DNA from: Thermostichus sp. DRC_bins_24 | Lineage (GTDB): Bacteria; Cyanobacteriota; Cyanobacteriia; Thermostichales; Thermostichaceae | Assembly: GCA_039794845.1 (NCBI GenBank) | Contig: JAUQVK010000038.1 | Location: forward strand, 1-20,638 | Length of the DNA stretch: 20,638 bases | Direction of reading: 5' to 3' | Shown here: in pieces, positions 1 through 16,835 of the stretch | How positions within the stretch are numbered: the first letter of the stretch is position 1 | How the letters are laid out: each line of letters begins with the position of its first letter | The notes under the pieces: model-generated | Databases searched by the model: none | Told to the model about the DNA's origin: nothing | Seen by the model: only the letters and a program-made list of their open reading frames with translations | Translations under genes and position numbers: made by a program

Positions 1-270
1 CGGGCAATGGGAATTGACCTGGGATTGGAGCGATTCTTGACCGCTTCGGATGGCAGCTTCCAAAAGCGACCCAAGTTTTTCCAGTCGAGGCTACACAAGT
101 GGCAATTGCTGCCACGCAGAGCGACTCAAAAACAGAAGGGGGCTCAAAACCGGGAGAAGGCACAAACGAAAGTGGTGAGAAGGCACCATCGGATTGCTAA
201 GCGTCGCCAGGATTTTCACTTGAAGACGGCGCATCAACTGTGCGACCAAGCGCAGACCATCTTTATCGAG
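1..270 (+). mobile_element. tnpB: IS200/IS605-family TnpB (RNA-guided endonuclease) remnant, truncated at RuvC-II
   Basis: Translation has GIDLG (RuvC-I), FLTASDG, a basic helix HHRIAKRRQDFHLKTAHQLC and TIFIE (RuvC-II). The Zn finger and RuvC-III are absent. The frame is open to the left edge of the window. Confidence 0.85.
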
Positions 271-516
271 CGCTGGACAAATCACCGGTTTCGTTCCACG
301 TTGCATCGGGTTGCTTTGCCCAAAGGGGAAGCGGCCTTGCGCTCCCGCTACTCGATTGCCTGCTTCTTCGACCCCGATCTGGAGGCGGTCATCGAGTGTT
401 TGCCCAGCTGCCAAAGCCCAGAACAGCCCGCCCTCTACCCGCCTATCTCTTCCGGGGATTACCTGCGGCTGAAGCTGCAAGAGACGATGAAACAACCTGC
501 CCAAGTCAGATCCTAA
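268..516 (+). pseudogene. C-terminal fragment of an IPNS-like 2OG-Fe(II) oxygenase, fused in frame to the TnpB remnant
   Basis: ERWTNHRFRSTLHRV...RYSIACFFDP...IECLPSCQS...YPPI parallels the C-terminus of the intact oxygenase at 7443-8453 (RWTNDRWRSTLHRV...RLS...IECLPTCQS). The HxD motif is missing. Confidence 0.8.
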
Positions 517-526
517 CTTTATGGGT

Positions 527-1948
527 TTATGGAGATAAACCCATCGCCGCTCGGTAGCGGGTTTCCAAGGCTTGGGTCGCGGCAGAAAGGGACTTCTTGC
601 GCCAAGTGCCCCGTCTGAGGAGCTGTTGTCGTAGGGTTTCTGAGGTGAGATGCGGGGATCCCCGGGGTGGGCAAAATTGTCCGGCTTGGATGAGCCGCTT
701 GCCCCGCACCCAGACGCTCTCCACCACTTGAACAGGTCGGCCCAACACCAACAGGCCAATCGGATCCGTTCGCGGCAACAGAGACAGTTGGGTGAGATCG
801 TAGAGGGCCAGGTCTGCGGATTTGCCCACAGCAATTGAGCCGGTTTCCGCCTCCAACCCCAGCCCTCTGGCTCCTCCCAAGGCGGCCATTTCCAGGCTTT
901 GGCGCGGGGTTATCCAGTGGCGATAGTCGGGATCCGTAACACAGTGCAAGATGCTACCCAGCTTGATCGCTTCCAACAGATCCTGTCCATCACTGCTGGC
1001 GGCACCATCACAGCCCAACGCCACATTCACCCCCGCCTGTCGATATTTCAGGATCGGCGCAATGCCACTGCCCAGTCTCAGGTTGCTCAGAGGGTTATGC
1101 ACCACCGTTGCCCCCGTCTCCGCCAAGAGGGGAATCTCGGCATCACTGAGCCAAACGCAATGGGCCAGGGAGGTGCGTTCGTTAAAATAACCCAGCCGAT
1201 ACAGGTGTTCTGCCCCACCACAGCCATATTTCTCTTGGCAAAGGACTTGTTGGGCCTTGGCCTCCAACAAATGGGAATGGCGGGCCAGCCCATAGCGGTC
1301 GCTCAGCTCCATACAACCGAGGAACAGGGCATCAGAACACAACTGCGGCCCAGACGGCCCCACCGCAATGTGGATCCCGTCTTCCGGTCGATGAAACCGG
1401 TCGATCACCTCCTGCATCAGCTCCAAAAGGCCATCGGTTGGGCGAGTATCCGACGGAAATTTCAGCTTGCCGCCAGACGGGATCCCAGCCTGCATCGATT
1501 CATCCCGAATCAGGGGAGCGACAAAGGCCCGAATACCCATATCCCGATAGGCTCGCACCGCCGCCTCGATCATCGGCAACTCCTGACCGGGAATAAGGCT
1601 GATGTGATCCATCACCGTGGTGCCACCGGAAAGCAAGGTTTCCAAAGCCGTGGCCGCTGCACTCCAGTAGATGGCCTCCATTCCAGCAGGCAATTCCCCG
1701 TAGGTTTCGGAAAGCCACAACTCCAACGGTAACGGCGAGACCAGCCCTCTCAACCAAATTTGGGGTGAATGGGTATGTCCATTGACAAATCCCGGCAGCA
1801 GCAACTTGTGGTGGGCCTCGACGAGGATCCCTTCTGCAGGCAAGTTGGAGCCAATGGCTGAGATGCACCCGCCAGTGATGTGCAGATCGCAAATCTCGTA
1901 ACCATCTGCCGAAGGGATCCAAGCCTGTTGTAGGGTGAAATCAACCAT
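527..1948 (-). CDS. Metal-dependent amidohydrolase, deaminase/chlorohydrolase type (AtzA/TrzA/SsnA/MTA-SAH deaminase-like)
   Basis: 473 aa. Motifs LLLPGFVNGHTHS (HxH), GGTTVMDH, HSHLLE (HxxE), LAHCVW, HNPLSNLRLGSG, LGCDG and GSIAVGKSADL. Confidence 0.9.
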   Translation of the reverse strand: MVDFTLQQAWIPSADGYEICDLHITGGCISAIGSNLPAEGILVEAHHKLLLPGFVNGHTHSPQIWLRGLVSPLPLELWLSETYGELPAGMEAIYWSAAATALETLLSGGTTVMDHISLIPGQELPMIEAAVRAYRDMGIRAFVAPLIRDESMQAGIPSGGKLKFPSDTRPTDGLLELMQEVIDRFHRPEDGIHIAVGPSGPQLCSDALFLGCMELSDRYGLARHSHLLEAKAQQVLCQEKYGCGGAEHLYRLGYFNERTSLAHCVWLSDAEIPLLAETGATVVHNPLSNLRLGSGIAPILKYRQAGVNVALGCDGAASSDGQDLLEAIKLGSILHCVTDPDYRHWITPRQSLEMAALGGARGLGLEAETGSIAVGKSADLALYDLTQLSLLPRTDPIGLLVLGRPVQVVESVWVRGKRLIQAGQFCPPRGSPHLTSETLRQQLLRRGTWRKKSLSAATQALETRYRAAMGLSP

Positions 1949-2040
1949 TACAGCCTTTTCCGGCGTTATCCATTACAGTCGTTGACCCTCCGGAACAATC
2001 CCTTGCCTTACACCCTACGTGAAGTCGGAAAAGGCTATAA
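1948..2040 (-). promoter_or_regulatory. Inverted repeat whose 3' arm covers the RBS and first base of the amidohydrolase start codon
   Basis: mRNA arms UUAUAGCCUUUUCCGAC (2040-2024) and GCCGGAAAAGGCUGUAA (1964-1948) give 15 contiguous pairs including one G-U, then an A-C mismatch and a further C-G pair. Confidence 0.55.
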
Positions 2041-2184
2041 GACCAACGCGTTTGTTCACAAAATCGAGAGTGTAGGCTTGGGTGTGGCCAAAATCTGCAG
2101 GCAACAACTCGACCAGTACCATATCGGCAAAAAGGCTGATGAACAGGGCTTTTGCAACGCAGACGAACCTTTTACTTGCAAATC

Positions 2185-2227
2185 ATTTTGTGCAGGTCAT
2201 CCCCCTTCGTTCTGTGTTCTCAGATAC
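2185..2227 (-). promoter_or_regulatory. Candidate NtcA-type site and weak -10 upstream of the amidohydrolase
   Basis: Minus strand GTA-TCTGAGAA-CAC (2227-2214), one mismatch to GTAN8TAC, then 23 nt, then CAAAAT. Confidence 0.4.
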
Positions 2228-2325
2228 CGAGCAACAGCTGTGGCCAGCCAGAAAGCAAAAGGGCCAAGTGCTATAGCCCCTCATGACTATTCCGTTGTTT
2301 TGGCAGGAAGCCCGGATCCCTTCTC

Positions 2326-2374
2326 GATCAAATAATCAAACAAATGATCAAATGCAAATATCAAATTATCAAAT
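2326..2374. repeat. AT-rich degenerate short tandem repeat, (AT)CAAA(T) x7
   Basis: gatcaaat aatcaaa caaat gatcaaat gcaaat atcaaat tatcaaat; overlaps the frr stop codon. Confidence 0.7.
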
Positions 2375-2917
2375 GGTGCTCAGTTCCTTCTCTTTCTCCG
2401 CCAGCAGCTCATCCACCTTCTTGATGTAGCGGTCGGTTAACTTTTGGATGTCCTCTTGCAGGCCTTTCGACTCATCTTCGGAAAGCTCGCCGTTTTTCTC
2501 CCGCTTGCGCACCGAATCGATCCCATCCCGCCGGATATTCCGAATCGAAACCCGGCCTTCTTCCGCCAGCTTGGCCACCTGTTTGCTGAGTTCTTTGCGG
2601 CGCTCCTCCGTCAGGGGGGGAATGTTGAGCCGCACCACCTTGCCGTCGTTGCTAGGATTTAAACCCAAGTCAGAAGCTACGATTGCCCGCTCAATCGCCG
2701 CCAGAGTGGAGGGATCAAAAGGCTGAATCAGAAGGGTGCTGGAGTCGGGAGTGGTGAGGTTGGCCAAGGCTTTCAGGGGGGTGGGCACCCCGTAATACTC
2801 TACCTGAATACGATCCAACAGGCTGGAATTGGCCCGCCCGGTGCGCACCGTATTAAAGGATCGCTGCGTAGCTTGCACAGCTTTGCCCATTAGCTCTTCC
2901 ACTTCAGCTAGCTCCAC
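2369..2917 (-). CDS. frr: Ribosome recycling factor
   Basis: Motifs [29 protein letters not shown] and RNIRRD. GTG start at 2917 follows GAAGGAG and gives 182 aa. Confidence 0.97.
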
Positions 2918-3190
2918 GGGGGCTCCTTCGCATTCAAGACACACACGACACAGTTGGGCTCAGAGACACAGGCGTGGATGGCAGGTAAGCCCAGCGTGAA
3001 CCCGTCCTTAATTTTACTGCCTCGTCGGGATCCGCAAGGGATCCCTGTCCCCATTCGGCCCGATCCCTCTACCAGTGGGGCTGCCGATCCTAAAGAAGAT
3101 CCTCAGTTTCCTTGAGAAATGCCCCCCATCAGGATGGTACGAATGCAAAACATCTCTTAGCCTACGGGAACAGTTGATCTCTTGACCACC

Positions 3191-3757
3191 ATGGCTTTTT
3201 ACGTTCGGAATTCCCGCTGGTCTCTGCTGTTCGGGTTGAGTGTGCTCGGCCTTGGAGCGCCCACGTTGGCCCAAGAACAAATTGTCTCCCCCAACGCCTA
3301 CAAAGTGCCCTACTTGGGGGTGGATGGCACCTTTACCCTCGATACCTCCCTAGAGCAGTCTGCCAATGATCCGCGCAACCCCAAGCGGGTCAAGTTTGAA
3401 AAAATGGAGTTTTTTTCCTTTTACGCTGATTTGGAGGGCACAGAACCCTTGGCCGAGAACTGCCGCTACGTCTATCGGGGGGCGGCTGGGGATCCCTTCT
3501 TTTTCCCTGAGCGTTCTTTGGGATCCATCTGGGATTTGTTTCAACTGCGGCAAGGGTCGGATGCCAGTTGTGAAGCCTTCACCTATGTGATCCTGCGGGC
3601 TCCCCACGGGGATCCGGTGCACATGCACATGCGCTACGGCGACAACAGCACGGGTTTTCAGACCCTTTTGGACATCAGTACGCTGCCGGAAGATGCCGCC
3701 AGCTTTAACCCTTGGTGGAGCACCTACTGTGCAGAGGGGGTAACTGCCTGTGATTGA
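3191..3757 (+). CDS. Hypothetical secreted protein
   Basis: N-terminal signal peptide (MAFYVRNSRWSLLFGLSVLGLGAPTLA-QE), four Cys, host-like composition, fills the gap between frr and recR. Confidence 0.7.
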   Translation: MAFYVRNSRWSLLFGLSVLGLGAPTLAQEQIVSPNAYKVPYLGVDGTFTLDTSLEQSANDPRNPKRVKFEKMEFFSFYADLEGTEPLAENCRYVYRGAAGDPFFFPERSLGSIWDLFQLRQGSDASCEAFTYVILRAPHGDPVHMHMRYGDNSTGFQTLLDISTLPEDAASFNPWWSTYCAEGVTACD

Positions 3758-3764
3758 GCCGGGG

Positions 3765-4364
3765 TCATAGCTCTCTGCGGGCTTCTAGGGCACGGGCCAG
3801 GGTGACTTCATCGGCGTATTCTAGGTCGGATCCCATCGGCAGGCCGAAGGCGAGGCGGGTCATGTGCAAACTGGGGGAAACCTGCTTCAAAAAGTCTTTG
3901 ATGACGTGCATGGTCACCTCGCCCTCGACACTGGGGCTAAGGGCAAAGATCAGCTCCTGGGGTTTCTCCTGGGCTACCCGTGCCACCAACTCGCGAATAT
4001 GCAGTTGATCCACTCCGATTCCGTTCATGGGGGAAATGAGACCCCCCAAAACGTGGTAACGCCCTTTGAACTCGCGAGTTCGTTCCAGGGCGATCAAGTC
4101 CTTCGCCTCCGCCACCACGCACCAAACCGAGGGATCCCGTTGGGGGGAACGACAGATCTCACAGGGATCCTCCGCCGACCAGTTAAAGCAAATGGAGCAA
4201 TGCTTCACGGTTTGCTTGGCTTCCAAAAGGGCTTGGGCCAGGGCTTCGATCTCGGTGACGGGCCGATTGATCAAATGCAAAGCTAGGCGCTGAGCAGTTT
4301 TGGAGCCAATGCCGGGTAGCCGTTGCAACTCCTCGATCAGGCGAGCGAGCGGACGTGTGTACAT
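3765..4364 (-). CDS. recR: Recombination mediator RecR
   Basis: [13 protein letters not shown]hH, C4 zinc finger (CSIC...CEIC), [25 protein letters not shown]. Confidence 0.97.
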
Positions 4365-4385
4365 AAAGGCTCAGGGTGAGAGGGA

Positions 4386-4721
4386 TCAGCCCAATCCCAG
4401 CCCCGGCAAGCTGATGTCGCCCGTCAACTCTTCCATCCGTTTGCGCATGGTTTCGGCAGACTGGGTGTAGGCGTTGACCATAGCCGTCAGCACCAGATCT
4501 TCAAGCACATCCGGGGCTTCTTTTAGGGCTTCGGGATCCAGAGAAACTTTCAGGGGCTCTTGGTTGCCGTTGACGGTCACCTTCACCAGCCCGTTGCCGG
4601 CTTCCCCGACGATTTCCATCTCTTCTAGCTCCTTTTGGAGCTTTTGAGCGCCATCGCGCACCTGCTGGGCTTTCTTGAGCGCTTCTTGGATTTTGCCGAA
4701 TGGGCCAAAGCCTCGCGTCAT
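4386..4721 (-). CDS. ybaB: YbaB/EbfC nucleoid-associated protein
   Basis: AQKLQKELEEMEIVGEAGNGLVKVTVNGNQEP...LEDLV; canonical position upstream of recR. Confidence 0.93.
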   Translation of the reverse strand: MTRGFGPFGKIQEALKKAQQVRDGAQKLQKELEEMEIVGEAGNGLVKVTVNGNQEPLKVSLDPEALKEAPDVLEDLVLTAMVNAYTQSAETMRKRMEELTGDISLPGLGLG

Positions 4722-4899
4722 GGGATCCTCTTCTGAATTCAGATCACTGCTGTACTACTCTACCCGTTTCCTCCCATCGGTCAAAGCACCGGAAAATCTG
4801 GGTAAGATCCGCCTACCTTAGGTTGCCGTTAACCCTGGCGGATTATCCTCACAAATAAGCACAGACCCCATACTGACTCTGGCAATCTCTGGAGGCGCA

Positions 4900-5799
4900 A
4901 TGGCCCAACTTTTGCAGGATCCCCAATCCCCACCATCCACCGAACCCACCTCCACTCGGGTGGAGTCTTCTCTGTTCTCTTTGCAGGGATGGATCCCGGA
5001 GCGCTGGTACGTGCATCTGGGCCTGTTGTTGGCCTGTTTGGTGCTGGGGTTCCCGGTGTTGTATGCCCTAATCGTCAGCACCCAGAACAATGCCGAGGTG
5101 TTTCGCTACCAATTCACCTTCGGCTCTTCCTTTGGTTTCAACTGGCGGCAGGTGATGGTGTCGCGGCACTTGGGAAGCTATATGCTCAACAGCACGATCA
5201 TGGCGGTGGCAATCACCGTCGGCAAAACCGTTTTGTCTCTGCTGGCGGGCTTGGCCTTTGTCTACTTTCGCTTTCCGGGCAAATGGCTGGTGTTTGGCTT
5301 TGTGCTCATCACCCTGATGATGCCCACCGAAATTTTGATCATCGCCCTGCTGCGTTTTGTAACCAACTTGGGCTGGGGATCCACCTACTACGCCTTGATC
5401 GTGCCTTTTTTGGCCAGTGCCACCGCCACCTTCCTATTCCGGCAACATTTTTCCAACATCCCCAGTGAGCTTTCGGAGGCCGCCCAATTGGATGGGGCCA
5501 ACCCGCTGCAGTTTCTCACCCGGGTGCTGATCCCTCTCAGTTGGAACGCCATTGGGGCCCAGGCGGTGATTCACTTCGTCTACGCTTGGAATATGTACCT
5601 GTGGCCGCGCCTGATCGTGCAAGGCCGAGAGAACCAGGTGGTGCAGGTGGGGTTGCAATCGCTGCTCAACCTGGATAGCTCCGCTTCCTATGGCCCGATG
5701 ATGTTGGGGGCGATTGTCGCCAGCATCCCGCCGCTGGTGGTGTTTGTGTTGTTGCAGAAGCCCTTCATGAGCGGTTTTGCCTTGGCCCGCGACAAGTGA
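4900..5799 (+). CDS. Carbohydrate ABC transporter permease (UgpE/MalG-like)
   Basis: Several TM segments, EAA loop IPSELSEAAQLDGA, WNMYLWP and FLFRQHF; GGAGG RBS at 4891. Confidence 0.9.
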   Translation: MAQLLQDPQSPPSTEPTSTRVESSLFSLQGWIPERWYVHLGLLLACLVLGFPVLYALIVSTQNNAEVFRYQFTFGSSFGFNWRQVMVSRHLGSYMLNSTIMAVAITVGKTVLSLLAGLAFVYFRFPGKWLVFGFVLITLMMPTEILIIALLRFVTNLGWGSTYYALIVPFLASATATFLFRQHFSNIPSELSEAAQLDGANPLQFLTRVLIPLSWNAIGAQAVIHFVYAWNMYLWPRLIVQGRENQVVQVGLQSLLNLDSSASYGPMMLGAIVASIPPLVVFVLLQKPFMSGFALARDK

Positions 5800-5833
5800 A
5801 TGGGCCCCAGCCCTTCTTTGAGTGTCTGAATCC

Positions 5834-7342
5834 ATGTCCCGAGATCTGCGTCGCTTTATCACCCTGTTGGAGTCCCGCGGCCAGTTGCGCCGCATTGCCG
5901 CAGAGGTGGATCCCGACCTGGAAATTGCCGAGATCGCTGAGCGGATGTTGGCTTGTGGTGGGCCGGCCCTGTTGTTCGAGCGGGTGAAGGGATCCCGCCT
6001 GCCGCTGTTGATCAATGCCCTGGGCACGGTGGAGCGCATCTGCTGGGCCATGGGCATGGAGCAGCCCCAAGAGCTGGAAACCCTGGGCAAAAAATTGGCC
6101 CTGCTCTACCAGCCGCGTCCCCCGAAAAAGTTCTCCCAGGCGGTGGAGCTGGGGCAGGCTTTGTTCAGCGTGCTTAAGGCCAAACCCGGCCGCGATCTGT
6201 TGCCCCCCTGTCAGCAGGTGGTGGTGCGGGAAGAGGCGGTGGATCTGACGCAATTGCCCCTGTTGCGGGTCTACCCGGGGGATGCCGGGCGGGTGCTGAC
6301 GCTGGGGCTGATGGTGACCAAAGACCCGGAAAACGGGATCCCGAATGTAGGGGTCTATCGCCTGCAGCTGCAAAGCCGCAACACCATGACGGTGCAGTGG
6401 CTGTCGGTGCGGGGGGCAACCCGACACTTGCGCAAAGCAGCTGCCCTGGGCAAAAAGTTGGAGGTGGCCGTTGCGGTCGGGGTGGATCCCTTGGTGATTA
6501 TGGCGGCAGCCACCCCGGTGCCGGTGGACCTGTCGGAGTGGTTGTTTGCCGGCCTTTATGCGGGGGAAGGGCTCCACCTGGCCCAATGTAAGACCGTCGA
6601 TTTGCAGGTGCCTGCCCAGTCGGAGATCGTCTTGGAAGGTACGATCACCCCCGGAGAAGTGGCCCCCGATGGCCCCGCCGGAGATCACATCGGCTATTAC
6701 GGCCCCCGCAACGAGCAGGCCCCCCTGATCCGGTTTCACTGCCTCACCCACCGCCGCGATCCGATCTATCTCACCACCTTCAGCGGCAAGCCTCCCAAAG
6801 AAAATGACATGATGGCTCTGGCCCTGAACCGGGTGTATACCCCCATCCTGAGGCAGCAGGTGCCGGAGATCGTGGATTTCTTTTTGCCGATGGAAGCCCT
6901 GGGCTACAAGGCGGCAATTCTTTCGATCGACAAAGCCTACCCCGGCCAAGCACGGCGGGCGGCCCTGGCTTTTTGGAGCGCGCTGCCCCAGTTCAGCTAC
7001 ACCAAGTTTGTGATCGTGGTGGACAAAGACATCAACGTTCGGGATCCGCGGGCGGTCGTGTGGTGCCTCTGTTCGCGGGTGGATCCGCAGCGGGATGTGT
7101 TCATTCTGCCGGATAACCCCTTCGATGCCCTCGATTTTGCCACGGAAAAACGCGGCCTTGGGGGCAAAATGGGCATTGATGCCACCACCAAGATCCCCCC
7201 CGAAACCGATTCCCTCTGGCGGGATCCCCTCACCTCTGATCCTGAGGTGGCGAAGCTGGTTGATCGCCGTTGGGCAGAGTATGGCCTGGCGGATGTGAAC
7301 TTGCAAGCAGCGGATCCCCGCCTGTTCGGCTATGAGCTTTAG
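5834..7342 (+). CDS. ubiD: UbiD-family prFMN-dependent decarboxylase (probably 4-hydroxy-3-polyprenylbenzoate decarboxylase)
   Basis: DLRRFITLLE, VDPDLEIAEI, NVGVYRLQ, EIVLEG, DGPAGDHIGYY, KFVIVVDKDINVRD and KMGIDAT. Confidence 0.95.
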   Translation: MSRDLRRFITLLESRGQLRRIAAEVDPDLEIAEIAERMLACGGPALLFERVKGSRLPLLINALGTVERICWAMGMEQPQELETLGKKLALLYQPRPPKKFSQAVELGQALFSVLKAKPGRDLLPPCQQVVVREEAVDLTQLPLLRVYPGDAGRVLTLGLMVTKDPENGIPNVGVYRLQLQSRNTMTVQWLSVRGATRHLRKAAALGKKLEVAVAVGVDPLVIMAAATPVPVDLSEWLFAGLYAGEGLHLAQCKTVDLQVPAQSEIVLEGTITPGEVAPDGPAGDHIGYYGPRNEQAPLIRFHCLTHRRDPIYLTTFSGKPPKENDMMALALNRVYTPILRQQVPEIVDFFLPMEALGYKAAILSIDKAYPGQARRAALAFWSALPQFSYTKFVIVVDKDINVRDPRAVVWCLCSRVDPQRDVFILPDNPFDALDFATEKRGLGGKMGIDATTKIPPETDSLWRDPLTSDPEVAKLVDRRWAEYGLADVNLQAADPRLFGYEL

Positions 7343-7442
7343 GTGCCGAGGGGGTGACAATCGCAGGTACAGCCACTCCAAATAAATCCAAATAAAAACG
7401 ATTGCAATGACCGTAAAATGCCCATGGAGAGGTCATCAATCC

Positions 7443-8453
7443 TTACTTCACAACAGACGCTTCAATCTTGCGGCGAATATACTCACCCGCCCTAACGGCT
7501 TCATAGCGAGGTGGGTTACTCTCACTTTGGCAGGTGGGTAAACATTCAATCCAAGCATCCGCCCGTGGGCCGGTGAAATAAACCAGGGAAAGTCGCCGGG
7601 TCGAGCCGGAAAGGTTCCTGGGTGGATTGATGACTCGATGTAACGTGGAGCGCCAACGATCATTGGTCCAGCGAGCAATCAAATCCCCGACGTTAATCAC
7701 AAAGGAGTTTGGCAGAGGTTTCACATCTACCCACTCCCCAGACTGCAAACATACCTGTAAACCCCCAGGCGCTTGATCCTGTAGAAGAATGGTCAGGCCC
7801 CCATAGTCAGAATGAGCTCCATAGCGAAGCTGCCCCGGCAAAGGCTCTTGAGGTTGATCGGGGTAATGCACCGCTCGAAACACGCCCCCATTGGGATCCA
7901 TAAATGGGATGAAATACTCCTCGGGCAAATCCAAAGCCAATGCGCTGATTCGCATCAATGTATGGCTGAGATCAAACAAAGCTTGACTGAAAGCCAAGAA
8001 AGATGCTCGCAGCCTAGGTGGGTAGACCGGCCAAGGATTGCCAGAATCCGGATCTATCCCCCCTTGAGGTCGGCCAGGATTCTCTTTGACCAGGTTGAGG
8101 AACATCAAGGCCTCACACAAGTCTGGAGGAGCTTCTTCATTGCGTGTAGCAGCAACACTGTCTACCCCGAAGGGAATATAACCCCGATTGGATAGTCGAT
8201 CGGGCAGGGTGGCTTTCAACTTTTCCTCCAGTGGCCGATCGAAAAAAGCAATCGCCTGGCGGTAGGCTGCCTCCGATAAGGATTCAGGGATCCCATGCCC
8301 TGTAATGGCCACAAACCCTACTTCCTCCAGAGCTTTGCCAAACTCACGAGCTACCCCTCCCTTATCCGTTGCACCCAGAAAGGGAGCAATGTCAACGCAA
8401 GGGATCCCTTGAGCATAGGAGAGCACAGGCTCTGGTGTCGCAGTCTCAGGCAT
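7443..8453 (-). CDS. IPNS-like 2OG-Fe(II) oxygenase (DIOX_N plus 2OG-FeII_Oxy domains)
   Basis: IPCVDI, GFVAITGHGI, GAHSDYGGLTIL (HxD), INVGDLIARWTND, STLHRV (distal His) and RLS (RxS). ATG 8453 is preferred because the predicted promoter lies over ATG 8480. Confidence 0.92.
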   Translation of the reverse strand: MPETATPEPVLSYAQGIPCVDIAPFLGATDKGGVAREFGKALEEVGFVAITGHGIPESLSEAAYRQAIAFFDRPLEEKLKATLPDRLSNRGYIPFGVDSVAATRNEEAPPDLCEALMFLNLVKENPGRPQGGIDPDSGNPWPVYPPRLRASFLAFSQALFDLSHTLMRISALALDLPEEYFIPFMDPNGGVFRAVHYPDQPQEPLPGQLRYGAHSDYGGLTILLQDQAPGGLQVCLQSGEWVDVKPLPNSFVINVGDLIARWTNDRWRSTLHRVINPPRNLSGSTRRLSLVYFTGPRADAWIECLPTCQSESNPPRYEAVRAGEYIRRKIEASVVK

Positions 8454-8481
8454 GGCCGAATAGGTGAACTTCCAGCTCATT

Positions 8482-8523
8482 ACCCTATGGGAGAAGGAGG
8501 CCAGGTTTTGTGGCAACAGATAC
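8482..8523 (-). promoter_or_regulatory. Candidate NtcA-activated (class II) promoter for the oxygenase
   Basis: Minus strand GTA-TCTGTTGC-CAC (8523-8510), 22 nt, then TAGGGT (TAN3T, 8487-8482). Confidence 0.6.
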
Positions 8524-8588
8524 AATAACGAATTGCTTGCAATGTAAGGATTGCTCTACTTCAAGGGTTAAATGGGAGCTTTAGGGCG

Positions 8589-9656
8589 ATGAGACGATTG
8601 GGCACTGCGGGTCGTTTTTCGAGTTTTCATTCTCTTAGAGCCGTGGAGTTGTCTCTAAGCACACTTGTCAACAAAGCTAAATATCTGTTGATCTTTTTGA
8701 CATTGCTGCTGTGCAATCCTGTTGCTCCAGCTCAAGGTGAGTCCCAACCGGATATTTCGGGCATGAAGCTGGCCCTAATTTTGGGTGGATCTGCCAATGA
8801 TGGCTCTTGGAATGAAGCAGGTGCAGAGGGGGCTGCAGGGCTTGAATCTTCGGGGGTTGAAGTTGTGATTGTCGAGCAAATTCCTGATCCGGATGCAGAG
8901 CGAGTGATTCGCCAATATGCCGAGAAGGGGTTTGACTTAATTATCGGGCATTCTTTTAATCATCAAGACGCAATCTTTACAGTGGCAGATGAGTTTCCAG
9001 ATATCAACTTCGCCTGGGCAGCAGGAATTGGGCGATTCAGTGAAAATGTCTCAGACTACGATCAACCTTTTTTTGAAGCTGCTTACTTGGCAGGGATCCT
9101 TGCCGGAGACCTCACAAACACCGGAAAGTTGGGGGCGCTCTATGGTTTTGAGATCCCAGTCTGCAAAGCCATGGGCAATGCCTTCTTGGCAGGAGCTCAG
9201 TTGGTCAACCCAGAGGCTACCCTCACGGATGTCGCTGTTGGAGATTGGTACGATGTGGGTCGCGCAAAAGAAGCTGCACTGGCCCAAGCGGAGACTGGCG
9301 TTGATTTTTGGATTGGATGTGGACAGGGACCAACCTGGGGATCAATTGAAGCTGCCAAAGAAGTGGATGGCTTTGGAATTGGCTATGTGCGAGATATGAC
9401 GGCCATTGGACCAGAGGTAGTTGTAGCAAGTATCGTTTGGAATACAGAGCCTCTTTTCAGACAGATGTTGATGGATATCAAGGCAGGTGACTACTCCAAT
9501 AAATACTACGCCTTGGGGGTTTCTGAAGATGTCATACAACTGTCCATCAACCCTGACTTCCAGGATCAGATTGCTCCGGAAACCATGACCCTTTATGAAG
9601 AGACGAAGGCAAAAATCATTTCAGGGGAGATGGAAGTGCCCTTTCAGCCAGATTAA
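8589..9656 (+). CDS. BMP-family (PnrA/Med-like) ABC substrate-binding protein, probably for nucleosides or nucleobases
   Basis: ANDGSWNEAG, YAEKGFDLIIGHSF, EAAYLAGILAG, AFLAGA and KAKIISGE. Hydrophobic signal YLLIFLTLLLC; the true start may lie some codons downstream of 8589. Confidence 0.88.
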   Translation: MRRLGTAGRFSSFHSLRAVELSLSTLVNKAKYLLIFLTLLLCNPVAPAQGESQPDISGMKLALILGGSANDGSWNEAGAEGAAGLESSGVEVVIVEQIPDPDAERVIRQYAEKGFDLIIGHSFNHQDAIFTVADEFPDINFAWAAGIGRFSENVSDYDQPFFEAAYLAGILAGDLTNTGKLGALYGFEIPVCKAMGNAFLAGAQLVNPEATLTDVAVGDWYDVGRAKEAALAQAETGVDFWIGCGQGPTWGSIEAAKEVDGFGIGYVRDMTAIGPEVVVASIVWNTEPLFRQMLMDIKAGDYSNKYYALGVSEDVIQLSINPDFQDQIAPETMTLYEETKAKIISGEMEVPFQPD

Positions 9657-9916
9657 CCCAACAGCTTTTTCTCTCAAAACATAGCCCTTCCCATCTTCGG
9701 ATCTAGCCCCTATTCTTCTCCCTCCATGGGATCAAGTGCATGGGCCAGTCGGTACACCAACGCTTCGGCATGGGCAGATCCAGCCCTTTACGCCAAAGGT
9801 CATCACTACAGCCCTTGCGCGGGTTTTCTACAGCATAGATCAACAAACAACAAAAAACCTGCCCCAACCGATGTTGGACTGAGGCAGATGCCAACTTCAC
9901 GACCCCACTTTAAAGA

Positions 9917-11005
9917 TCAAGCAACCATTCGTTCAGCCTTGGGGGGCAAAAAGCTACCATCAAACACCTGCTCCAAAGCAGGTTTGCTGGACAAGCCAAA
10001 GCCATCCACCACCTGAGCAATTGAGGATTCCATGCGGGAAGGAACCACATCCCCCAATCCGTTTTCCCGCACCTCATCGGTAACAAACAGGCGGGGCATA
10101 GCCAGGGAAAGCCGCAACTTTTCGGTGGTGGCATCCAACACCTGACCTTGCTCCTTGAGCTTATCGATCAAGGCAAACATGTTGCGATCCGTGTCTTGAA
10201 TGCTATCCTGCCAACCCCTAGCGAAGGCCCTCAGGAAACCTTTGAGCATTTCCGGCCTTTCCCTGATCACTTCCGCCCGTGTGATCACCGCATTACCGTA
10301 CATATCTAGGCCATAGTCGTTGTAGAAGAAGGGAGTGATATCGCTCAGGCTAACCCCGCCCCGCACGATGTTGGGCATGGCCGAAGTCATAAACCCGCTG
10401 ATGGCATCCACCCGACCTTGAATGAGGAAAGGTTCCCGAAGTTGTGGCTCCATGGAAAGCCATTCCACCGAGCCCGGATCAATGCCAACTTGTTTGGCGA
10501 ATACCGGCCAGAGGCGACGGGGGGCATCTCCTGCCGGGGCACCCAATCTCCTGCCCGCCAACTGCTTGGGATCCGTGATGCCACTTCTTTTGAGGGTGTA
10601 GATGCCGAAGGGAGAGCGGTTGTACTGGATATAGATAGCCACCAAAGGCACATCGGGGTTCTTGGCATTGAACTCGATCATGGAGTAGGGATCCCCTTCT
10701 CCCAAATCGTATTGACCGGCAGCAATTTTGGTGATGGAATCGGCGGAGCCAAAGCCCCGTTCGTAGGTCACCTCAATACCGTTGTCGGCGAAGTAGCCCT
10801 TCAATATCCCGGTGATCAAGCCGATATCGGTGGAGGAGGGCAACCAAGACAGGGTGAATTTGACCGGGGTCAAAGCCTGGGAAATGAGCAGAGGACCGCG
10901 GCTCTGGGCCTTGGCCTTGAGGCCATACCCCCCGGCAGCGGCCAAAGAGGCAGCCGCAGCAGCAGATTGAATGAATTGGCGACGCGAGGATTTTGTGATG
11001 GACAT
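9917..11005 (-). CDS. NMT1/THI5-like ABC substrate-binding protein with Tat signal
   Basis: MSITKSSRRQFIQ twin-arginine motif; FTLSW, KGYFADNGIEV, GFGSADSI, LAGRRLGAPAGDA and GLDMYGNAVI. GGAG RBS precedes ATG 11005. Confidence 0.9.
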   Translation of the reverse strand: MSITKSSRRQFIQSAAAAASLAAAGGYGLKAKAQSRGPLLISQALTPVKFTLSWLPSSTDIGLITGILKGYFADNGIEVTYERGFGSADSITKIAAGQYDLGEGDPYSMIEFNAKNPDVPLVAIYIQYNRSPFGIYTLKRSGITDPKQLAGRRLGAPAGDAPRRLWPVFAKQVGIDPGSVEWLSMEPQLREPFLIQGRVDAISGFMTSAMPNIVRGGVSLSDITPFFYNDYGLDMYGNAVITRAEVIRERPEMLKGFLRAFARGWQDSIQDTDRNMFALIDKLKEQGQVLDATTEKLRLSLAMPRLFVTDEVRENGLGDVVPSRMESSIAQVVDGFGLSSKPALEQVFDGSFLPPKAERMVA

Positions 11006-11088
11006 ATCTAAAAGCTCCACAGTACCTAGCTCAGGAGGGATCCGCAGTGGGAATGCAGCAGACAATAAGGCGACGGCCACAAGCAGTA

Positions 11089-11129
11089 AACTTAGCAGGG
11101 TGGAGCCAGACTTTTGTATTCGAGGATAC
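11089..11129 (-). promoter_or_regulatory. NtcA consensus site and -10 box upstream of the NMT1/THI5-like gene
   Basis: Minus strand GTA-TCCTCGAA-TAC (11129-11116, perfect GTAN8TAC), 21 nt, then TAAGTT (11094-11089). Confidence 0.7.
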
Positions 11130-13522: not shown

Positions 13523-14971
13523 TCAAATGCGGCCCCGCAGCCATTGCGCCATCTCGTTGCGGCGAGGCGCAGCATCCAGACAGACCTCTTCTGTGATGCG
13601 CCCCTCTTGGTAAAGGTTAAACAACGACTGGTTCATCGTGCACATGCCTTCGTAGGATCCCTCCGCAATTAGATCCTCAATTTCATCCACGGCACCTCGT
13701 TTGATATAGTCACGAATGGCATCGGTGTTGCGCAGGATCTCGTGGGCAGCTGTCCGCTTGCCGTCGGTGGTCCGTACCAGGGTCTGGGCGACGATTGCCA
13801 CCAGCGTTTCTGACAATTGCAGGCGCATTGGCTCCTGTTCTTCGGGACTGTAAATCCCCAGCAAACGTTCGATCGTACGGACAGCGCTGTTGGTGTGCAG
13901 AGTGCCGAAGACCAAGTGGCCGGTCTGACCGGCTTTCAGGGCTGTATCCACGGTTTCTCGATCCCGCATTTCCCCAATTAGGATCACATCCGGATCCTCC
14001 CGCAAAGAGGCCTTGAGGGCATTGGCAAACTCCAGGGTGTGGATCCCGACCTCCCGCTGCCGGATCATGGATTTCTTACTTTGATGCACAAACTCCACCG
14101 GATCCTCGATGGAGATGATGTGCTTCGGGAAGTTGGAGTTGATGTAGTCCACCATGGCGGCTAAGGTTGTGGATTTCCCGGATCCCGTCGGGCCGGTCAC
14201 CAGCACCAAGCCTTTCTGCTCCTCAGAAATGCGCTTCAACACCTCCGGCGCCCGCAGCTGCTCCAGCGTCAAAATTTTCAGAGGGATCAGACGCATTACC
14301 AAAGCGGGGCCAAGCAGTGACACAAAGCAGTTCACCCGGCAACGCACCATATTCTCGTACTGAATGGCCGTATCCAGTTCCAGGCATTCTTCAAACTGGC
14401 GGATTTGGTTCTCCGGCAAGCTTTCCCGCAACCAGCTGTAAAACATCTCGGTGGTGGTGACGGGGTAGTTGGTCATGAGCATTTGCCCCCGATCCCGAAA
14501 ACGCGGCACTTCCCCCACCCCCAGGTGAATATCGGAGTAGCCGTTGTCGTAGGCTTCCTGCACCAGTTGCCGCAGCGTCAGCCCAGAGGAGGGAGCAGTT
14601 CCTCGAGGAGTGGCCGGGGTCATCGGGATCCGACCCGAAGCGGTTGGGCGTGCCGGGGGCGCAAACGGCAGGTTGGGCAGGGGGGCAGAGGCCGCGCTGG
14701 GCATAGCAGCAGGGCCGGGCATCGGCACGGGAATTTGGGGCGGAGCGGCAGCCACACCGGGCGGAATAGGCCGACCCATGATCGCCCCACGACCGACCTC
14801 TTGAGGAGCAGAGACTCCAGCATTGAGCGCCGGATCCAGTTGCGTGGGTGGTTCCACCTTAGGAATGTGGCCAGATAGGCGGGGAGGACGCTGCAAGATA
14901 GGCGGGGCCGGCGGTTTCCAATCGGAGTCTAAGTCAGTGGGAAATTGGTTCTCGGGGCTGACTTCGCTCAT
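13523..14971 (-). CDS. pilT: Type IV pilus retraction ATPase, PilT2-like, with Pro-rich N-terminal extension
   Basis: SDIHL, Walker A GPTGSGKST, IEDPVEF, LREDPDVILIGEMRD and His box TGHLVFGTLHT. Confidence 0.95.
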   Translation of the reverse strand: MSEVSPENQFPTDLDSDWKPPAPPILQRPPRLSGHIPKVEPPTQLDPALNAGVSAPQEVGRGAIMGRPIPPGVAAAPPQIPVPMPGPAAMPSAASAPLPNLPFAPPARPTASGRIPMTPATPRGTAPSSGLTLRQLVQEAYDNGYSDIHLGVGEVPRFRDRGQMLMTNYPVTTTEMFYSWLRESLPENQIRQFEECLELDTAIQYENMVRCRVNCFVSLLGPALVMRLIPLKILTLEQLRAPEVLKRISEEQKGLVLVTGPTGSGKSTTLAAMVDYINSNFPKHIISIEDPVEFVHQSKKSMIRQREVGIHTLEFANALKASLREDPDVILIGEMRDRETVDTALKAGQTGHLVFGTLHTNSAVRTIERLLGIYSPEEQEPMRLQLSETLVAIVAQTLVRTTDGKRTAAHEILRNTDAIRDYIKRGAVDEIEDLIAEGSYEGMCTMNQSLFNLYQEGRITEEVCLDAAPRRNEMAQWLRGRI

Positions 14972-15082: not shown

Positions 15083-15772
15083 TTAAAAACTGGCCGGATG
15101 GCGAATTAGGCTCAAAAACTCTTCGCGTGTGCGGGGATCCTCTTGAAACACGCCCACCATGGAGCTGGTAACCGTCCAGGAGCCCGGTTTTTGCACCCCC
15201 CGCATCACCATGCACATGTGGCTTGCTTCCATCACCACTCCCACACCGTAGGGATCCAAGACCTCCATTAGGGCTTCTGCCACTTGCCGAGTCAGGCGTT
15301 CTTGCACCTGTAAACGGCGAGAATACATCTCGACAATGCGGGCGATCTTGCTCAGGCCCACCACCTTTTGTTTGGGAATATAGGCCACATGAGCTTTGCC
15401 GATAAAGGGCAGCATGTGGTGCTCACACAGGCTAAACATGGAGATATCCCGCAACAACACCATCTCGTCGTGGCCGACATCGAAAATTGCCCCGTTGATC
15501 AAATCTTCCAAAGATTGCCGATACCCACTCGTCAAGAACTTCAGAGCCAGAGCCACCCGTTGCGGAGTTTTTGCGAGGCCCTCCCGCTCGGGATCCTCCC
15601 CAATGCCTCGCAGTAGCGTTTCTACCGCCGCTACCATGGTCGGATCCGGGACATCTGCCCCACCGGCTTCATCTTCCACAAGATCAGACAAATCCTGTAC
15701 CACCCGCGACTTGAAGTGGTTTTTGTCGTTCAGGCGAGACTGGGCGCCAGATCCAGATTGCGCAAGGGTCAT
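15083..15772 (-). CDS. folE: GTP cyclohydrolase I
   Basis: [44 protein letters not shown] and HMCMVMRGV. Confidence 0.97.
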
Positions 15773-15876
15773 AGCAGAGTGTTCCTTAGATCAGATAAGC
15801 GAGATAAGCGAAGCGTGGCGTGCAAGGGAGGGCCAAAAACGTGAAACTGCAAAAAACTGCAAAAGTTTGGCCAAGC

Positions 15877-16608
15877 CTAAAAAGTGCCAACCGTCGGCAT
15901 CAGGGTGAGATCTTCCACCACTGCACCTGCGGGCAAGCGAAGGATGTAGGCAACCAGATCCGCAACCCATTCGGGCGCAAGCATTTTGGACCGGTCGAAA
16001 TCCACGGCCACTGTGTCTGTATCCCAGATGGGGGTATCGACGGCGCCGGGGCAAAGGCTGGTAACCCGAATGCCATGCTGCCGTTCCTCTTCGGCCAAAG
16101 CTTGAGAAAACCCCATCAAACCAAACTTGCTGGCACAGTAAGCACCCCAGTTGGGAAAGGCTCGCTTGCCCGCAATAGAGATGACGTTGACGATGACGCC
16201 GGCCCGTTGCCGACGCATACCCGGCAACACTGCTTGGGTACAAAGAAAGGCCGCAGTTAGGTTGAGATCAAGCACCCGTTGCCAATCCGACAAAGGGAGG
16301 GTTGCTAGGGGGCCAACATAGGCCATACCCGCATTATTGACCAAGACATCGCAGGAGCCAAACCGGTCTAGGAGCGCTTGCAACTGCTGGGGCAAAGCCG
16401 ACAGGTCTGCCAAATCAATGGGAAAAACCTCCGCTTTGCCGCCCTCAGCTTGAATCTGCGCCTGCACCGCTAGCAAATCGTCGCGGGAACGAGCTACCAG
16501 AGCCACTGAAAGCCCCTCTCGGGCTAAGGTCAAGGCCACAGCCTTGCCGATCCCACGGCTGGCACCTGTGATCAGGGCGCGCTGGGGCACCTTTGTGTCA
16601 AAACTCAT
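15877..16608 (-). CDS. Classical SDR oxidoreductase (NADP-type), upstream of folE
   Basis: TGASRGIG, NNAG, S...YCASK and PGAVDT; ATG at 16608. Confidence 0.93.
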   Translation of the reverse strand: MSFDTKVPQRALITGASRGIGKAVALTLAREGLSVALVARSRDDLLAVQAQIQAEGGKAEVFPIDLADLSALPQQLQALLDRFGSCDVLVNNAGMAYVGPLATLPLSDWQRVLDLNLTAAFLCTQAVLPGMRRQRAGVIVNVISIAGKRAFPNWGAYCASKFGLMGFSQALAEEERQHGIRVTSLCPGAVDTPIWDTDTVAVDFDRSKMLAPEWVADLVAYILRLPAGAVVEDLTLMPTVGTF

Positions 16609-16835
16609 CCAGAACAAGGCTCTGGGATGCGCTGAGCCAGGGTTAGCGCCACCAAAACCTGAGAAACTCCATTAACAAGTGTAACACCGATCTTCCGGTC
16701 AGCCGAATTTGGGCCAAGGATAGGGCTTAACTTCCCCATTTCTGGGATCGATCAGGGGTGAGCTGCGGGTATGGTAGAGTGCAATATAGTGAAAATCTTT
16801 TGCAACAATTCCCCTGTCGTTTCCCCGCTTGCTCT

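What the first reader, a model, noticed from the sequence alone, without database searches (positions are those of the whole stretch)
1..11129. Candidate dispersed NtcA-controlled pathway for scavenging nitrogen from (modified) nucleobases
Seen: five accessory genes within about 11 kb, interleaved with housekeeping genes, all from families associated with heterocycle handling: a deaminase-type amidohydrolase, two paralogous IPNS-like 2OG-Fe(II) oxygenases (one broken), a BMP binding protein and an NMT1/THI5-like binding protein. Three of them have a GTATC-N6-[T/C]AC site in class II geometry. Established: NtcA activates genes for alternative nitrogen sources; BMP/PnrA proteins bind nucleosides; NMT1/THI5-like proteins bind pyrimidine-like ligands; fungal thymine 7-hydroxylase belongs to this oxygenase fold. 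Inference: uptake, then oxidative demethylation or hydroxylation, then deamination releasing ammonium from methylated or oxidised purines, pyrimidines, pterins or triazines available in the mat. 2OG would be both the NtcA signal and the oxygenase co-substrate. The substrate cannot be read from the sequence.
Basis: partly seen in the sequence, partly recalled or inferred. Interest (0 to 1): 0.75.

Follow-up and report, generated by a model that had tools for sequence, protein, structure and literature searches.

The report
Scattered nitrogen-starvation genes for purine scavenging
A hot-spring cyanobacterium carries many imported transport and oxidation genes scattered round its genome, many behind a conserved nitrogen-starvation-type promoter, and they likely let it harvest nitrogen from oxidised or modified purines; the five seen here are likely pieces of different units rather than one pathway.

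Summary
The genes and three GTATC-N6-YAC sites are real. Two sites have a proper -10 box and are conserved in relatives; the third has a weak box and precedes an unnoticed remnant of another binding-protein gene. The genome's own glnA promoter has the same form. The five genes are not one inherited unit: relatives keep them apart, and the genome holds 39 genes or fragments of these families plus NdmA/SxtT-like Rieske oxygenases on 23 contigs, enriched for NtcA-type sites. Relatives elsewhere narrow the substrate to purines. Window-type NMT1 proteins co-occur with urate hydroxylase HpxO (6 of 7 genomes). Oxygenase relatives lie in xanthine-riboswitch operons (6 of 17 chosen loci). One cyanobacterium has an NtcA-site operon NMT1-ABC-Rieske-Rieske-oxygenase-amidohydrolase. 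No known urate oxidase was found here although allantoinase and urease are present. Verdict: a new, expanded, dispersed variant of purine-nitrogen utilisation; substrates and induction untested. The scan noted other NtcA-type scavenging pieces in this genome before.

The parts
1..269 (+). IS200/IS605 TnpB remnant at the contig end, abutting the oxygenase fragment
   Evidence: NCBIfam/Pfam; similar copies at other contig ends
262..516 (+). C-terminal ~80 aa of a broken IPNS-like 2OG-Fe(II) oxygenase; N-terminal part not found in the genome
   Evidence: PF03171 partial; 43% to the intact window copy, 51% to the C11 copy; same junction in a contig of run X1
527..1948 (-). COG0402-type metal amidohydrolase; second, divergent copy of a widespread cyanobacterial family (HTHSPQ where the core family has HTHSSE)
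   Evidence: metal ligands H58, H60, H226, D314, catalytic E229 and H263 present
2015..2137 (-). Decayed 3' end of an NMT1/THI5-family binding-protein gene, between the site and the amidohydrolase
   Evidence: profile hit to model positions 350-384 of 389, E 0.0025 over the six-frame genome; 51% over 33 aa to the C89 protein
2185..2227 (-). NtcA-type site GTATC-N6-CAC (2214-2227) with a weak -10 (CAAAAT, 2185-2190)
   Evidence: conservation untestable, no orthologous locus found
7443..8453 (-). Intact IPNS/T7H-like 2OG-Fe(II) oxygenase, 336 aa, nested among proteobacterial relatives
   Evidence: codon score in the lowest 1%, GC3 0.52
8482..8523 (-). Class II NtcA-type promoter of the oxygenase: site 8510-8523, N22, TAGGGT; may also serve the divergent BMP gene
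   Evidence: conserved in 3 of 3 orthologues and in 5 of 6 copies of the sister paralogue
8589..9656 (+). BMP/PnrA-family binding protein without its own transporter genes beside it
   Evidence: PF02608; 70% to the C25 copy that heads BMP-Rieske-ABC-permease; start codon conserved; GC3 0.46
9917..11005 (-). NMT1/THI5-like ABC binding protein with a twin-arginine-like leader; likely partners (ATPase, permease) on contig C85
   Evidence: PF09084; orthologues of 81-88% in 7 relatives; C85 genes 57-65% to partners in other cyanobacteria
11089..11129 (-). Class II NtcA-type promoter: GTATC-N6-TAC (11116-11129), N21, TAAGTT
   Evidence: conserved in 8 of 8 aligned orthologues; invariant columns 9 of 14 in the site and 4 of 6 in the box, against 8 of 21 in the spacer and 25 of 89 in the leader

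Best explanation
The window holds pieces of a genome-wide, scattered set of imported uptake and oxidation genes, two of them behind conserved NtcA-type promoters, that likely lets this Thermostichus-like cyanobacterium draw nitrogen from oxidised or modified purines when ammonium is short. Likely course: (1) on nitrogen limitation NtcA with 2-oxoglutarate switches on each separately placed gene (mechanism known for NtcA; sites shown here; induction inferred); (2) NMT1- and BMP-type binding proteins feed ABC transporters encoded elsewhere (partners inferred from homology); (3) NdmA/SxtT/HpxD-like Rieske oxygenases and T7H-like 2OG oxygenases hydroxylate or demethylate the bases (inferred from relatives); (4) COG0402 deaminases release ring amino groups as ammonium, and PuuE allantoinase, an allantoate-hydrolase-like enzyme and urease release more (genes shown; flux inferred). 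The five window genes likely come from at least three units: a decayed site-binding protein-amidohydrolase unit with an IS-broken oxygenase at the left, a recently acquired oxygenase/BMP pair, and an older NMT1 gene of urate-utilisation clusters. Rearrangement put them side by side.
For: Sites: conserved in 8 of 8 NMT1 orthologues, 3 of 3 oxygenase orthologues and 5 of 6 sister copies. glnA has GTATC-N6-AAC-N22-TAGGAT. Purine link: of 250 sampled cyanobacterial genomes 22 have HpxO; so do 6 of 7 carriers of the window-type NMT1, 12 of 13 carriers of the Rieske family and 6 of the 7 best oxygenase matches. Window-type NMT1 genes sit beside hpxO, uraH, uraD and puuE in three loci; Rieske genes lie within 8 kb of hpxO, uraH and uraD in 3 of 12 fetched loci. 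G250 has an NtcA-site operon NMT1-ABC-permease-Rieske-Rieske-oxygenase-amidohydrolase whose amidohydrolase is 52% identical to the window's and shares the Gln after the HxH motif; G031 has the same operon without the oxygenase. 62 of 77 non-Thermostichus loci of the oxygenase clade have an NMT1 gene and 21 of 77 a deaminase within 8 kb; 6 of 17 chosen loci carry the xanthine riboswitch, which PMC7373994 ties to these gene types. The oxygenase keeps 10 of 12 T7H active-site residues named in PMC4787775, including the Phe/Tyr base sandwich; T7H is the top fold match. The BMP keeps AtzT's aromatic purine sandwich and Ser/Phe. Dispersal: relatives keep the oxygenase/BMP pair beside a cytosine-deaminase-like gene and ETF genes, and NMT1 beside argS/ETF or leuS-like genes.
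Against: No expression or binding data. No uricase, PuuD, HpxO or OHCU decarboxylase was found in this genome or four relatives, so the standard route from urate to allantoin is cut. Only 2 of 20 family genes outside the window have a strict class II promoter, and the core amidohydrolase copy (C97), xdh-like gene and puuE have no site. Over all 41 oxygenase carriers the link to HpxO is weak (10 of 41; p 0.054 once the 107 genomes of one hit-less family are left out). Genomes are related, so the p-values overstate. The riboswitch operons are 50-56% relatives on another branch, and the G250 oxygenase is not an orthologue of the window's. The oxygenase clade also travels with pterin-deaminase-type genes (12 of 77) and with an unrelated ring-hydroxylating oxygenase (13 of 77). 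The BMP lacks AtzT's Glu165 and Asn218 (Val, Cys), so guanine itself is unlikely; its subfamily was found in 0 of 250 other sampled cyanobacteria. The amidohydrolase differs from its family at 24 of 206 conserved columns, including Asn to Ser after the metal Asp, which could be decay.
Confidence: 0.6

Rival explanations
1. The five window genes form one serial pathway on one substrate class (uptake, 2OG-dependent demethylation, deamination).
For: All carry or share similar sites; an operon of the same families exists in G250; NMT1 and oxygenase carriers overlap (5 of 7 against 41 of 250).
Against: The order is not kept in the relatives examined; the window amidohydrolase has no close copy in 20 relatives; the NMT1 is only about 22-28% like the NMT1 proteins that accompany the oxygenase clade; one oxygenase and one binding-protein gene are broken.
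Confidence: 0.12
2. The set scavenges pterins or lumazines (abundant cyanobacterial pigments and cofactors): deamination, hydroxylation, then conversion towards xanthine.
For: 12 of 77 oxygenase-clade loci hold a PRK07583 deaminase, and the riboswitch operons hold a close relative of PDB 2PAJ; that these are pterin and isoxanthopterin deaminases is recalled, partly backed by passages of PMC12391406. G000 has a PRK07583-like gene on C41. An OFF switch that senses xanthine fits any route that ends in xanthine.
Against: The window amidohydrolase is about 29% like the 2PAJ type. The proven route in PMC12391406 uses a Mo dehydrogenase, an isomerase and a prFMN decarboxylase; a term search of that paper found no Rieske or 2-oxoglutarate enzyme. 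Window-type NMT1 sits with urate genes.
Confidence: 0.15
3. The oxygenase is a bacterial thymine 7-hydroxylase and the set works on pyrimidines.
For: T7H is the best characterised sequence and fold match; active-site residues are largely kept; 36% relatives sit beside pseudouridine kinase and glycosidase.
Against: Only 30-31% identity; Glu122 and Asn294 are replaced; an ancestral ethylene-forming enzyme scores equally by sequence; the neighbours of the closest clade point to purines and pterins. Thymine hydroxylation alone frees no nitrogen.
Confidence: 0.07
4. The sites are not NtcA-driven or are vestigial, and the genes are unrelated, partly decaying imports.
For: An IS remnant and two gene remnants lie in the left block; atypical codon use; one low-depth contig of run X2 skips the 2214 site.
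Against: Half-sites and -10 boxes stay fixed while nearby leader DNA drifts; genome-wide enrichment; matching sites upstream of homologues in other cyanobacterial families.
Confidence: 0.06

Closest known systems
NtcA class II promoters of cyanobacteria (glnA, ntcA, nirA type; consensus recalled)
   Same: GTA-N8-TAC-like palindrome 21-23 nt before a TAN3T box; the same form in this genome's glnA, ntcA, nirA.
   Different: Two window sites end in CAC; one lacks a good -10; binding not tested.
Klebsiella hpx purine-utilisation cluster (HpxDE Rieske hydroxylase, HpxO, allantoinase; as described in PMC7373994 and PMC13751858)
   Same: Purine nitrogen use with a Rieske oxygenase; other cyanobacteria have the Rieske family and window-type NMT1 in hpxO/uraH/uraD/puuE clusters.
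   Different: No hpxO, uraH or uraD found here; ABC instead of NCS uptake; about nine Rieske and four intact 2OG oxygenase copies, scattered singly; NtcA-type control. HpxD itself was not compared.
Xanthine-riboswitch (NMT1 motif, RF03054) operons of Proteobacteria (PMC7373994)
   Same: Same gene types: IPNS-like dioxygenase, NMT1/THI5-like protein, Rieske, PRK12393 amidohydrolase, Tsx; riboswitch found upstream of 6 relatives' operons.
   Different: No riboswitch in the window or in 8 cyanobacterial loci scanned; the enzymes are still uncharacterised.
Neurospora thymine 7-hydroxylase (PDB 5C3P; PMC4787775)
   Same: Fold (TM about 0.8), Fe triad, 2OG-binding residues, Phe/Tyr base sandwich, Arg190, Asn87.
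   Different: 30-31% identity; Glu122 to Met, Asn294 to Gly; different gene context.
AtzT purine/hydroxyatrazine-binding BMP protein (PDB 6PI5; PMC6834077)
   Same: Aromatic sandwich (Tyr45 as Trp, Trp194), Ser97, Phe98.
   Different: Glu165 to Val, Asn218 to Cys, Asn220 to Gln (read from the alignment).
8-oxoguanine deaminase type COG0402 enzymes (NCBIfam PRK08203; PDB 3HPA best match)
   Same: Metal ligands, HxxE motif, Gln after HxH.
   Different: 253 of 532 bits; GPSGPQ for the PCS loop; Ser-Ser for Ser-Asn after the metal Asp.
NdmA/NdmB methylxanthine N-demethylases and SxtT/GxtA Rieske hydroxylases
   Same: Best solved relatives of the genome's Rieske protein on C25 (E 1e-74 to 1e-32).
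   Different: Outside the window; no partner reductase sought; substrates unknown.

Membership tests
NtcA class II promoter | GTA-N8-TAC-type palindrome | tested here: met
   11116 exact; 8510 and 2214 have one mismatch (CAC), as glnA here has AAC
NtcA class II promoter | TAN3T box 21-23 nt downstream | tested here: inconclusive
   met for 8510 and 11116, not met for 2214 (CAAAAT)
NtcA class II promoter | Conservation among orthologues | tested here: met
   8 of 8 and 3 of 3; 2214 untestable
NtcA class II promoter | NtcA binding and induction on nitrogen step-down | not testable with these tools
hpx-type purine utilisation | Urate oxidase (HpxO, uricase or PuuD) with uraH/uraD | tested here: not met
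   0 of 5 Thermostichus genomes; G000 is 99.9% complete but in 115 contigs
hpx-type purine utilisation | Allantoinase and downstream release of ammonium | tested here: met
   puuE over cut-off, allantoate-hydrolase-like gene C35, urease
hpx-type purine utilisation | Hypoxanthine/xanthine hydroxylase | tested here: inconclusive
   Rieske family occupies that place in other cyanobacterial clusters; an Xdh-like Mo protein is present; HpxD not compared
Xanthine-riboswitch operons | RF03054 upstream | tested here: not met
   no Rfam match in the window
Thymine 7-hydroxylase | His-Asp-His triad, Arg190/Tyr194/Arg286/Ser288, Phe292/Tyr217 | tested here: met
Thymine 7-hydroxylase | Glu122 and Asn294 of the uracil pocket; activity on thymine | tested here: not met
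   Met and Gly at those places; activity untested
8-oxoguanine deaminase (PRK08203) | Score over the curated cut-off; PCS and SN motifs | tested here: not met
   253 of 532 bits; motifs differ
COG0402 deaminase-type amidohydrolase | HxH, HxxE, His and Asp metal/catalytic residues | tested here: met
Guanine-binding BMP (AtzT type) | Glu165, Asn218, Asn220 hydrogen-bond set | tested here: not met
   Val, Cys, Gln

The most novel reading that the evidence does not exclude
Thermostichus lineages have built an NtcA regulon for eating modified and oxidised purines out of operon pieces taken from Proteobacteria and other cyanobacteria, each piece given its own promoter. Because this genome is the only one of 21 allantoinase (puuE) carriers in the sample without HpxO, and no other known urate oxidase was found, one of its extra Rieske or IPNS-like oxygenases is a new enzyme that opens or oxidises urate or methylated purines, defining an undescribed route from RNA-turnover bases to ammonium.
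Probability: 0.18. Interest if true: 0.75.

Novelty: new variant of a known kind. Interest (0 to 1): 0.5.

Why it matters
It points to purines as a nitrogen currency in hot-spring mats and to a cyanobacterial, NtcA-run form of purine use. It gives thermostable candidates for enzyme families that are common but uncharacterised: the IPNS-like oxygenases and NMT1 proteins of xanthine-riboswitch operons, and the Rieske family related to NdmA and SxtT. The missing urate oxidase makes a sharp, testable question. It is also a clear case of operons broken into single genes that keep or gain their own regulator site. The kind of system, purine use as a nitrogen source, is known, so the surprise is moderate.

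Tried and rejected
Rfam scan of the window and of 8 cyanobacterial loci: no match. Sequencing runs: three DNA runs of one study, no RNA holder listed; the best may be the source sample, so its matching contigs are not independent support; a depth-4.5 contig in X2 that skips 2080-2307 is too thin to use. Metagenome scan for the window amidohydrolase returned 13 loci, all 56-66% identical, none the same paralogue, so the 2214 site and the intact form of the broken oxygenase could not be checked. The idea that the 2OG oxygenase replaces HpxO was tested and not supported: it co-occurs with HpxO. The first count of 'SBP' neighbours mixed in mis-called frames and was replaced by tblastn counts. The careful amidohydrolase tree did not finish; the quick tree was used; the oxygenase tree is FastTree only, with no clade test, so the proteobacterial donor is inferred. 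NCBIfam gave no specific model for the Rieske proteins. The relaxed site pattern was fixed after I had seen hits; the strict pattern was not. Two Rieske rows (the C77 choline-type gene and one C101 fragment) and the five window genes were left out of the enrichment counts. Paper searches listed no paper on NtcA-controlled purine use or on these genes in Thermostichus; most subscription papers are not searched. Three papers on pterin and isoxanthopterin deaminase were not held. No supplements were read; those of PMC7373994 may list further gene contexts. No complex prediction was run, as no binding claim needed it.


Full report
Setting. The window is the start of contig C38 of a 3.5 Mb genome in 115 contigs. 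Its proteins' closest named relatives are Thermostichus. Housekeeping genes frr, recR, ybaB, ugpE and ubiD lie between the accessory genes.

Observation. The five genes are present with the stated families. The three sites are the only GTATC-N6-YAC matches in the window; 0 of 100 shuffles reach three. Two have a TAN3T box at 21-22 nt; the one at 2214 has CAAAAT at 23 nt and lies 266 bp from the amidohydrolase. In that gap, 2015-2137 encodes the decayed C-terminus of an NMT1-family binding protein (profile E 0.0025, the best hit after the 12 full-length family members). The left block therefore likely was site, binding protein, amidohydrolase, and has lost most of the middle gene. The oxygenase fragment abuts a TnpB remnant; its N-terminal part was not found in the genome.

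Are the sites functional? In the 7 NMT1 orthologues of related genomes plus the window, GTAT-N5-AATAC and the box at 21 nt are kept in 8 of 8; 9 of 14 site columns and 4 of 6 box columns are invariant against 25 of 89 in the leader. The oxygenase site is kept in 3 of 3 orthologues and 5 of 6 copies of its sister paralogue. The genome's glnA promoter reads GTATC-N6-AAC-N22-TAGGAT, and ntcA, nirA and an ntcB-like gene have exact sites with boxes. With the window genes left out, 10 of 20 genes of the four families have GTA-N8-TAC upstream against 123 of 2465 other genes; with the box required, 2 of 20 against 13 of 2465. NtcA control is thus well supported by sequence, but not shown by expression.

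Are the five genes one unit? No. In G004 and G010 the oxygenase/BMP pair lies beside a cytosine-deaminase-like gene and ETF genes, on other contigs than the NMT1 gene; in G005 the frr-ubiD block has other neighbours. All 20 relatives searched lack a close copy of the window amidohydrolase; their 60-63% matches are orthologues of a core copy on C97 beside queG and tsf, which has no site. The window copy forms its own branch with two database proteins and differs from its family at likely pocket residues. The oxygenase and BMP have the most atypical codon use in the window. The genome holds 39 genes or fragments of these four families and of a Rieske oxygenase family on 23 contigs, including about nine Rieske proteins, of which the one searched has SxtT/GxtA and the methylxanthine demethylases NdmA/B as best solved relatives; 4 of 8 have a relaxed class II promoter. 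The likely ATPase and permease for the window NMT1 lie on C85 behind another GTATC-N6-CAC site.

What is the substrate? (a) Window-type NMT1: found in 7 of 250 sampled cyanobacterial genomes; 4 of those 7 loci have a class II site upstream; 2 of them and a Pseudanabaena plasmid place it among hpxO, uraH, uraD and puuE; alphaproteobacterial relatives sit with allantoinase-type and ring-opening amidohydrolases. (b) Rieske family: 12 of 13 carriers have HpxO, against 22 of 250 overall; in 3 of 12 fetched loci it lies within the hpxO-uraH-uraD cluster, the place of HpxD in Klebsiella (PMC7373994, first two of five parts read; PMC13751858, passages). (c) G250 carries one operon, behind a class II site, of NMT1, ABC, permease, two Rieske genes, an oxygenase and an amidohydrolase 52% identical to the window's; G031 has it without the oxygenase. 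Homologues of all its genes are scattered in G000. (d) The window oxygenase nests among proteobacterial proteins (80 of 171 loci kept). Of 77 non-Thermostichus loci, 62 have NMT1, 16 the Rieske family, 12 a PRK07583 deaminase and 11 a COG0402 deaminase within 8 kb. Of 17 loci that I chose for their gene content, 6 carry the xanthine riboswitch. (e) The oxygenase model (pLDDT 90) matches thymine 7-hydroxylase best and keeps the residues that hold a free base (PMC4787775, passages). (f) The BMP keeps AtzT's aromatic sandwich but not its guanine-reading polar residues (PMC6834077, abstract and passages); its nearest relatives head BMP-ABC-Rieske units. Together this favours oxidised or modified purines, with pterins as the main alternative (PMC12391406, abstract and passages; PMC13197243, passages).

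A gap. All 20 other puuE carriers in the sample have HpxO; G000 does not. Uricase, PuuD, HpxO and OHCU decarboxylase were not found in G000 or four relatives, while puuE, an allantoate-hydrolase-like gene with a class II site, urease and an Xdh-like protein are present. Either nitrogen is taken mainly by deamination and from ready-made allantoin, or urate is oxidised without a dedicated enzyme (PMC12623156, passage, describes this for E. coli), or an unknown enzyme does it. The 2OG oxygenase is not favoured for that role, since it co-occurs with HpxO elsewhere.

Limits. Genomes are related, so co-occurrence p-values overstate; the sample missed weak candidates in some genomes (capped first look). 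Nothing here shows induction, binding or catalysis. The labels pterin deaminase for PRK07583 and isoxanthopterin deaminase for PDB 2PAJ, and the NtcA consensus, are recalled. Two mat-genomics papers were only term-searched and held none of the terms. Earlier notes of this scan on the same genome (NtcA-type amidohydrolase operon, C91 oxygenase cassette, cyanuric acid hydrolase) fit the regulon picture but are not independent evidence.

Verdict. Observation largely confirmed; interpretation right on regulation and broad function, wrong on a single local pathway. A new variant of a known kind, purine use as a nitrogen source. Interest 0.5; novel case (new purine-oxidising enzyme) probability 0.18, interest 0.75.

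Noticed in passing
window 9807-9835: A 29-base intergenic repeat with 25 exact and 83 near copies in the genome; only 1 of 83 lies near a TnpB-like hit. Identity unknown.
   Followed up: partly
window about 17198-17245: A 24-base tandem duplication inside the ABC ATPase gene gives a doubled 8-residue insert.
   Followed up: no
window 15083-16617: folE beside a PRK07454 short-chain reductase, probably pterin synthesis; unrelated to the finding unless pterins are the substrate.
   Followed up: no
window 3182-3757: A 191-aa secreted-looking protein with no Pfam or NCBIfam match, about 79% conserved in relatives between frr and recR.
   Followed up: no
window 13523-14971: PilT-family ATPase with a long proline-rich N-terminal extension of about 130 aa.
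   Followed up: no
G000 contigs C25, C31, C37, C44, C69, C86, C97, C101, C103: About nine paralogous SxtT/NdmA-like Rieske oxygenases, mostly single genes, several with NtcA-type promoters; far more than the one or two seen in other sampled cyanobacteria.
   Followed up: partly
G000 contigs C35, C46, C69, C74, C89, C101: Six or seven paralogous FAD-binding (PF01565) oxidoreductases of the type found with pterin-deaminase-like genes and creatininase in proteobacterial clusters.
   Followed up: no
L061 (G008:C89:26000-44000): An intact cluster in a relative: ABC genes, amidohydrolase, NMT1, SDR, oxygenase, AtzD-like ring-opening hydrolase, with NtcA-type sites.
   Followed up: partly
L224 (G250:C34) and L264 (G031:C60): Complete NtcA-site operons NMT1-ABC-permease-Rieske-Rieske-(oxygenase)-amidohydrolase; better experimental models than the window.
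   Followed up: partly
L234 (G000:C33): A fused 2Fe-2S/molybdopterin Xdh-like protein without an NtcA-type site.
   Followed up: no
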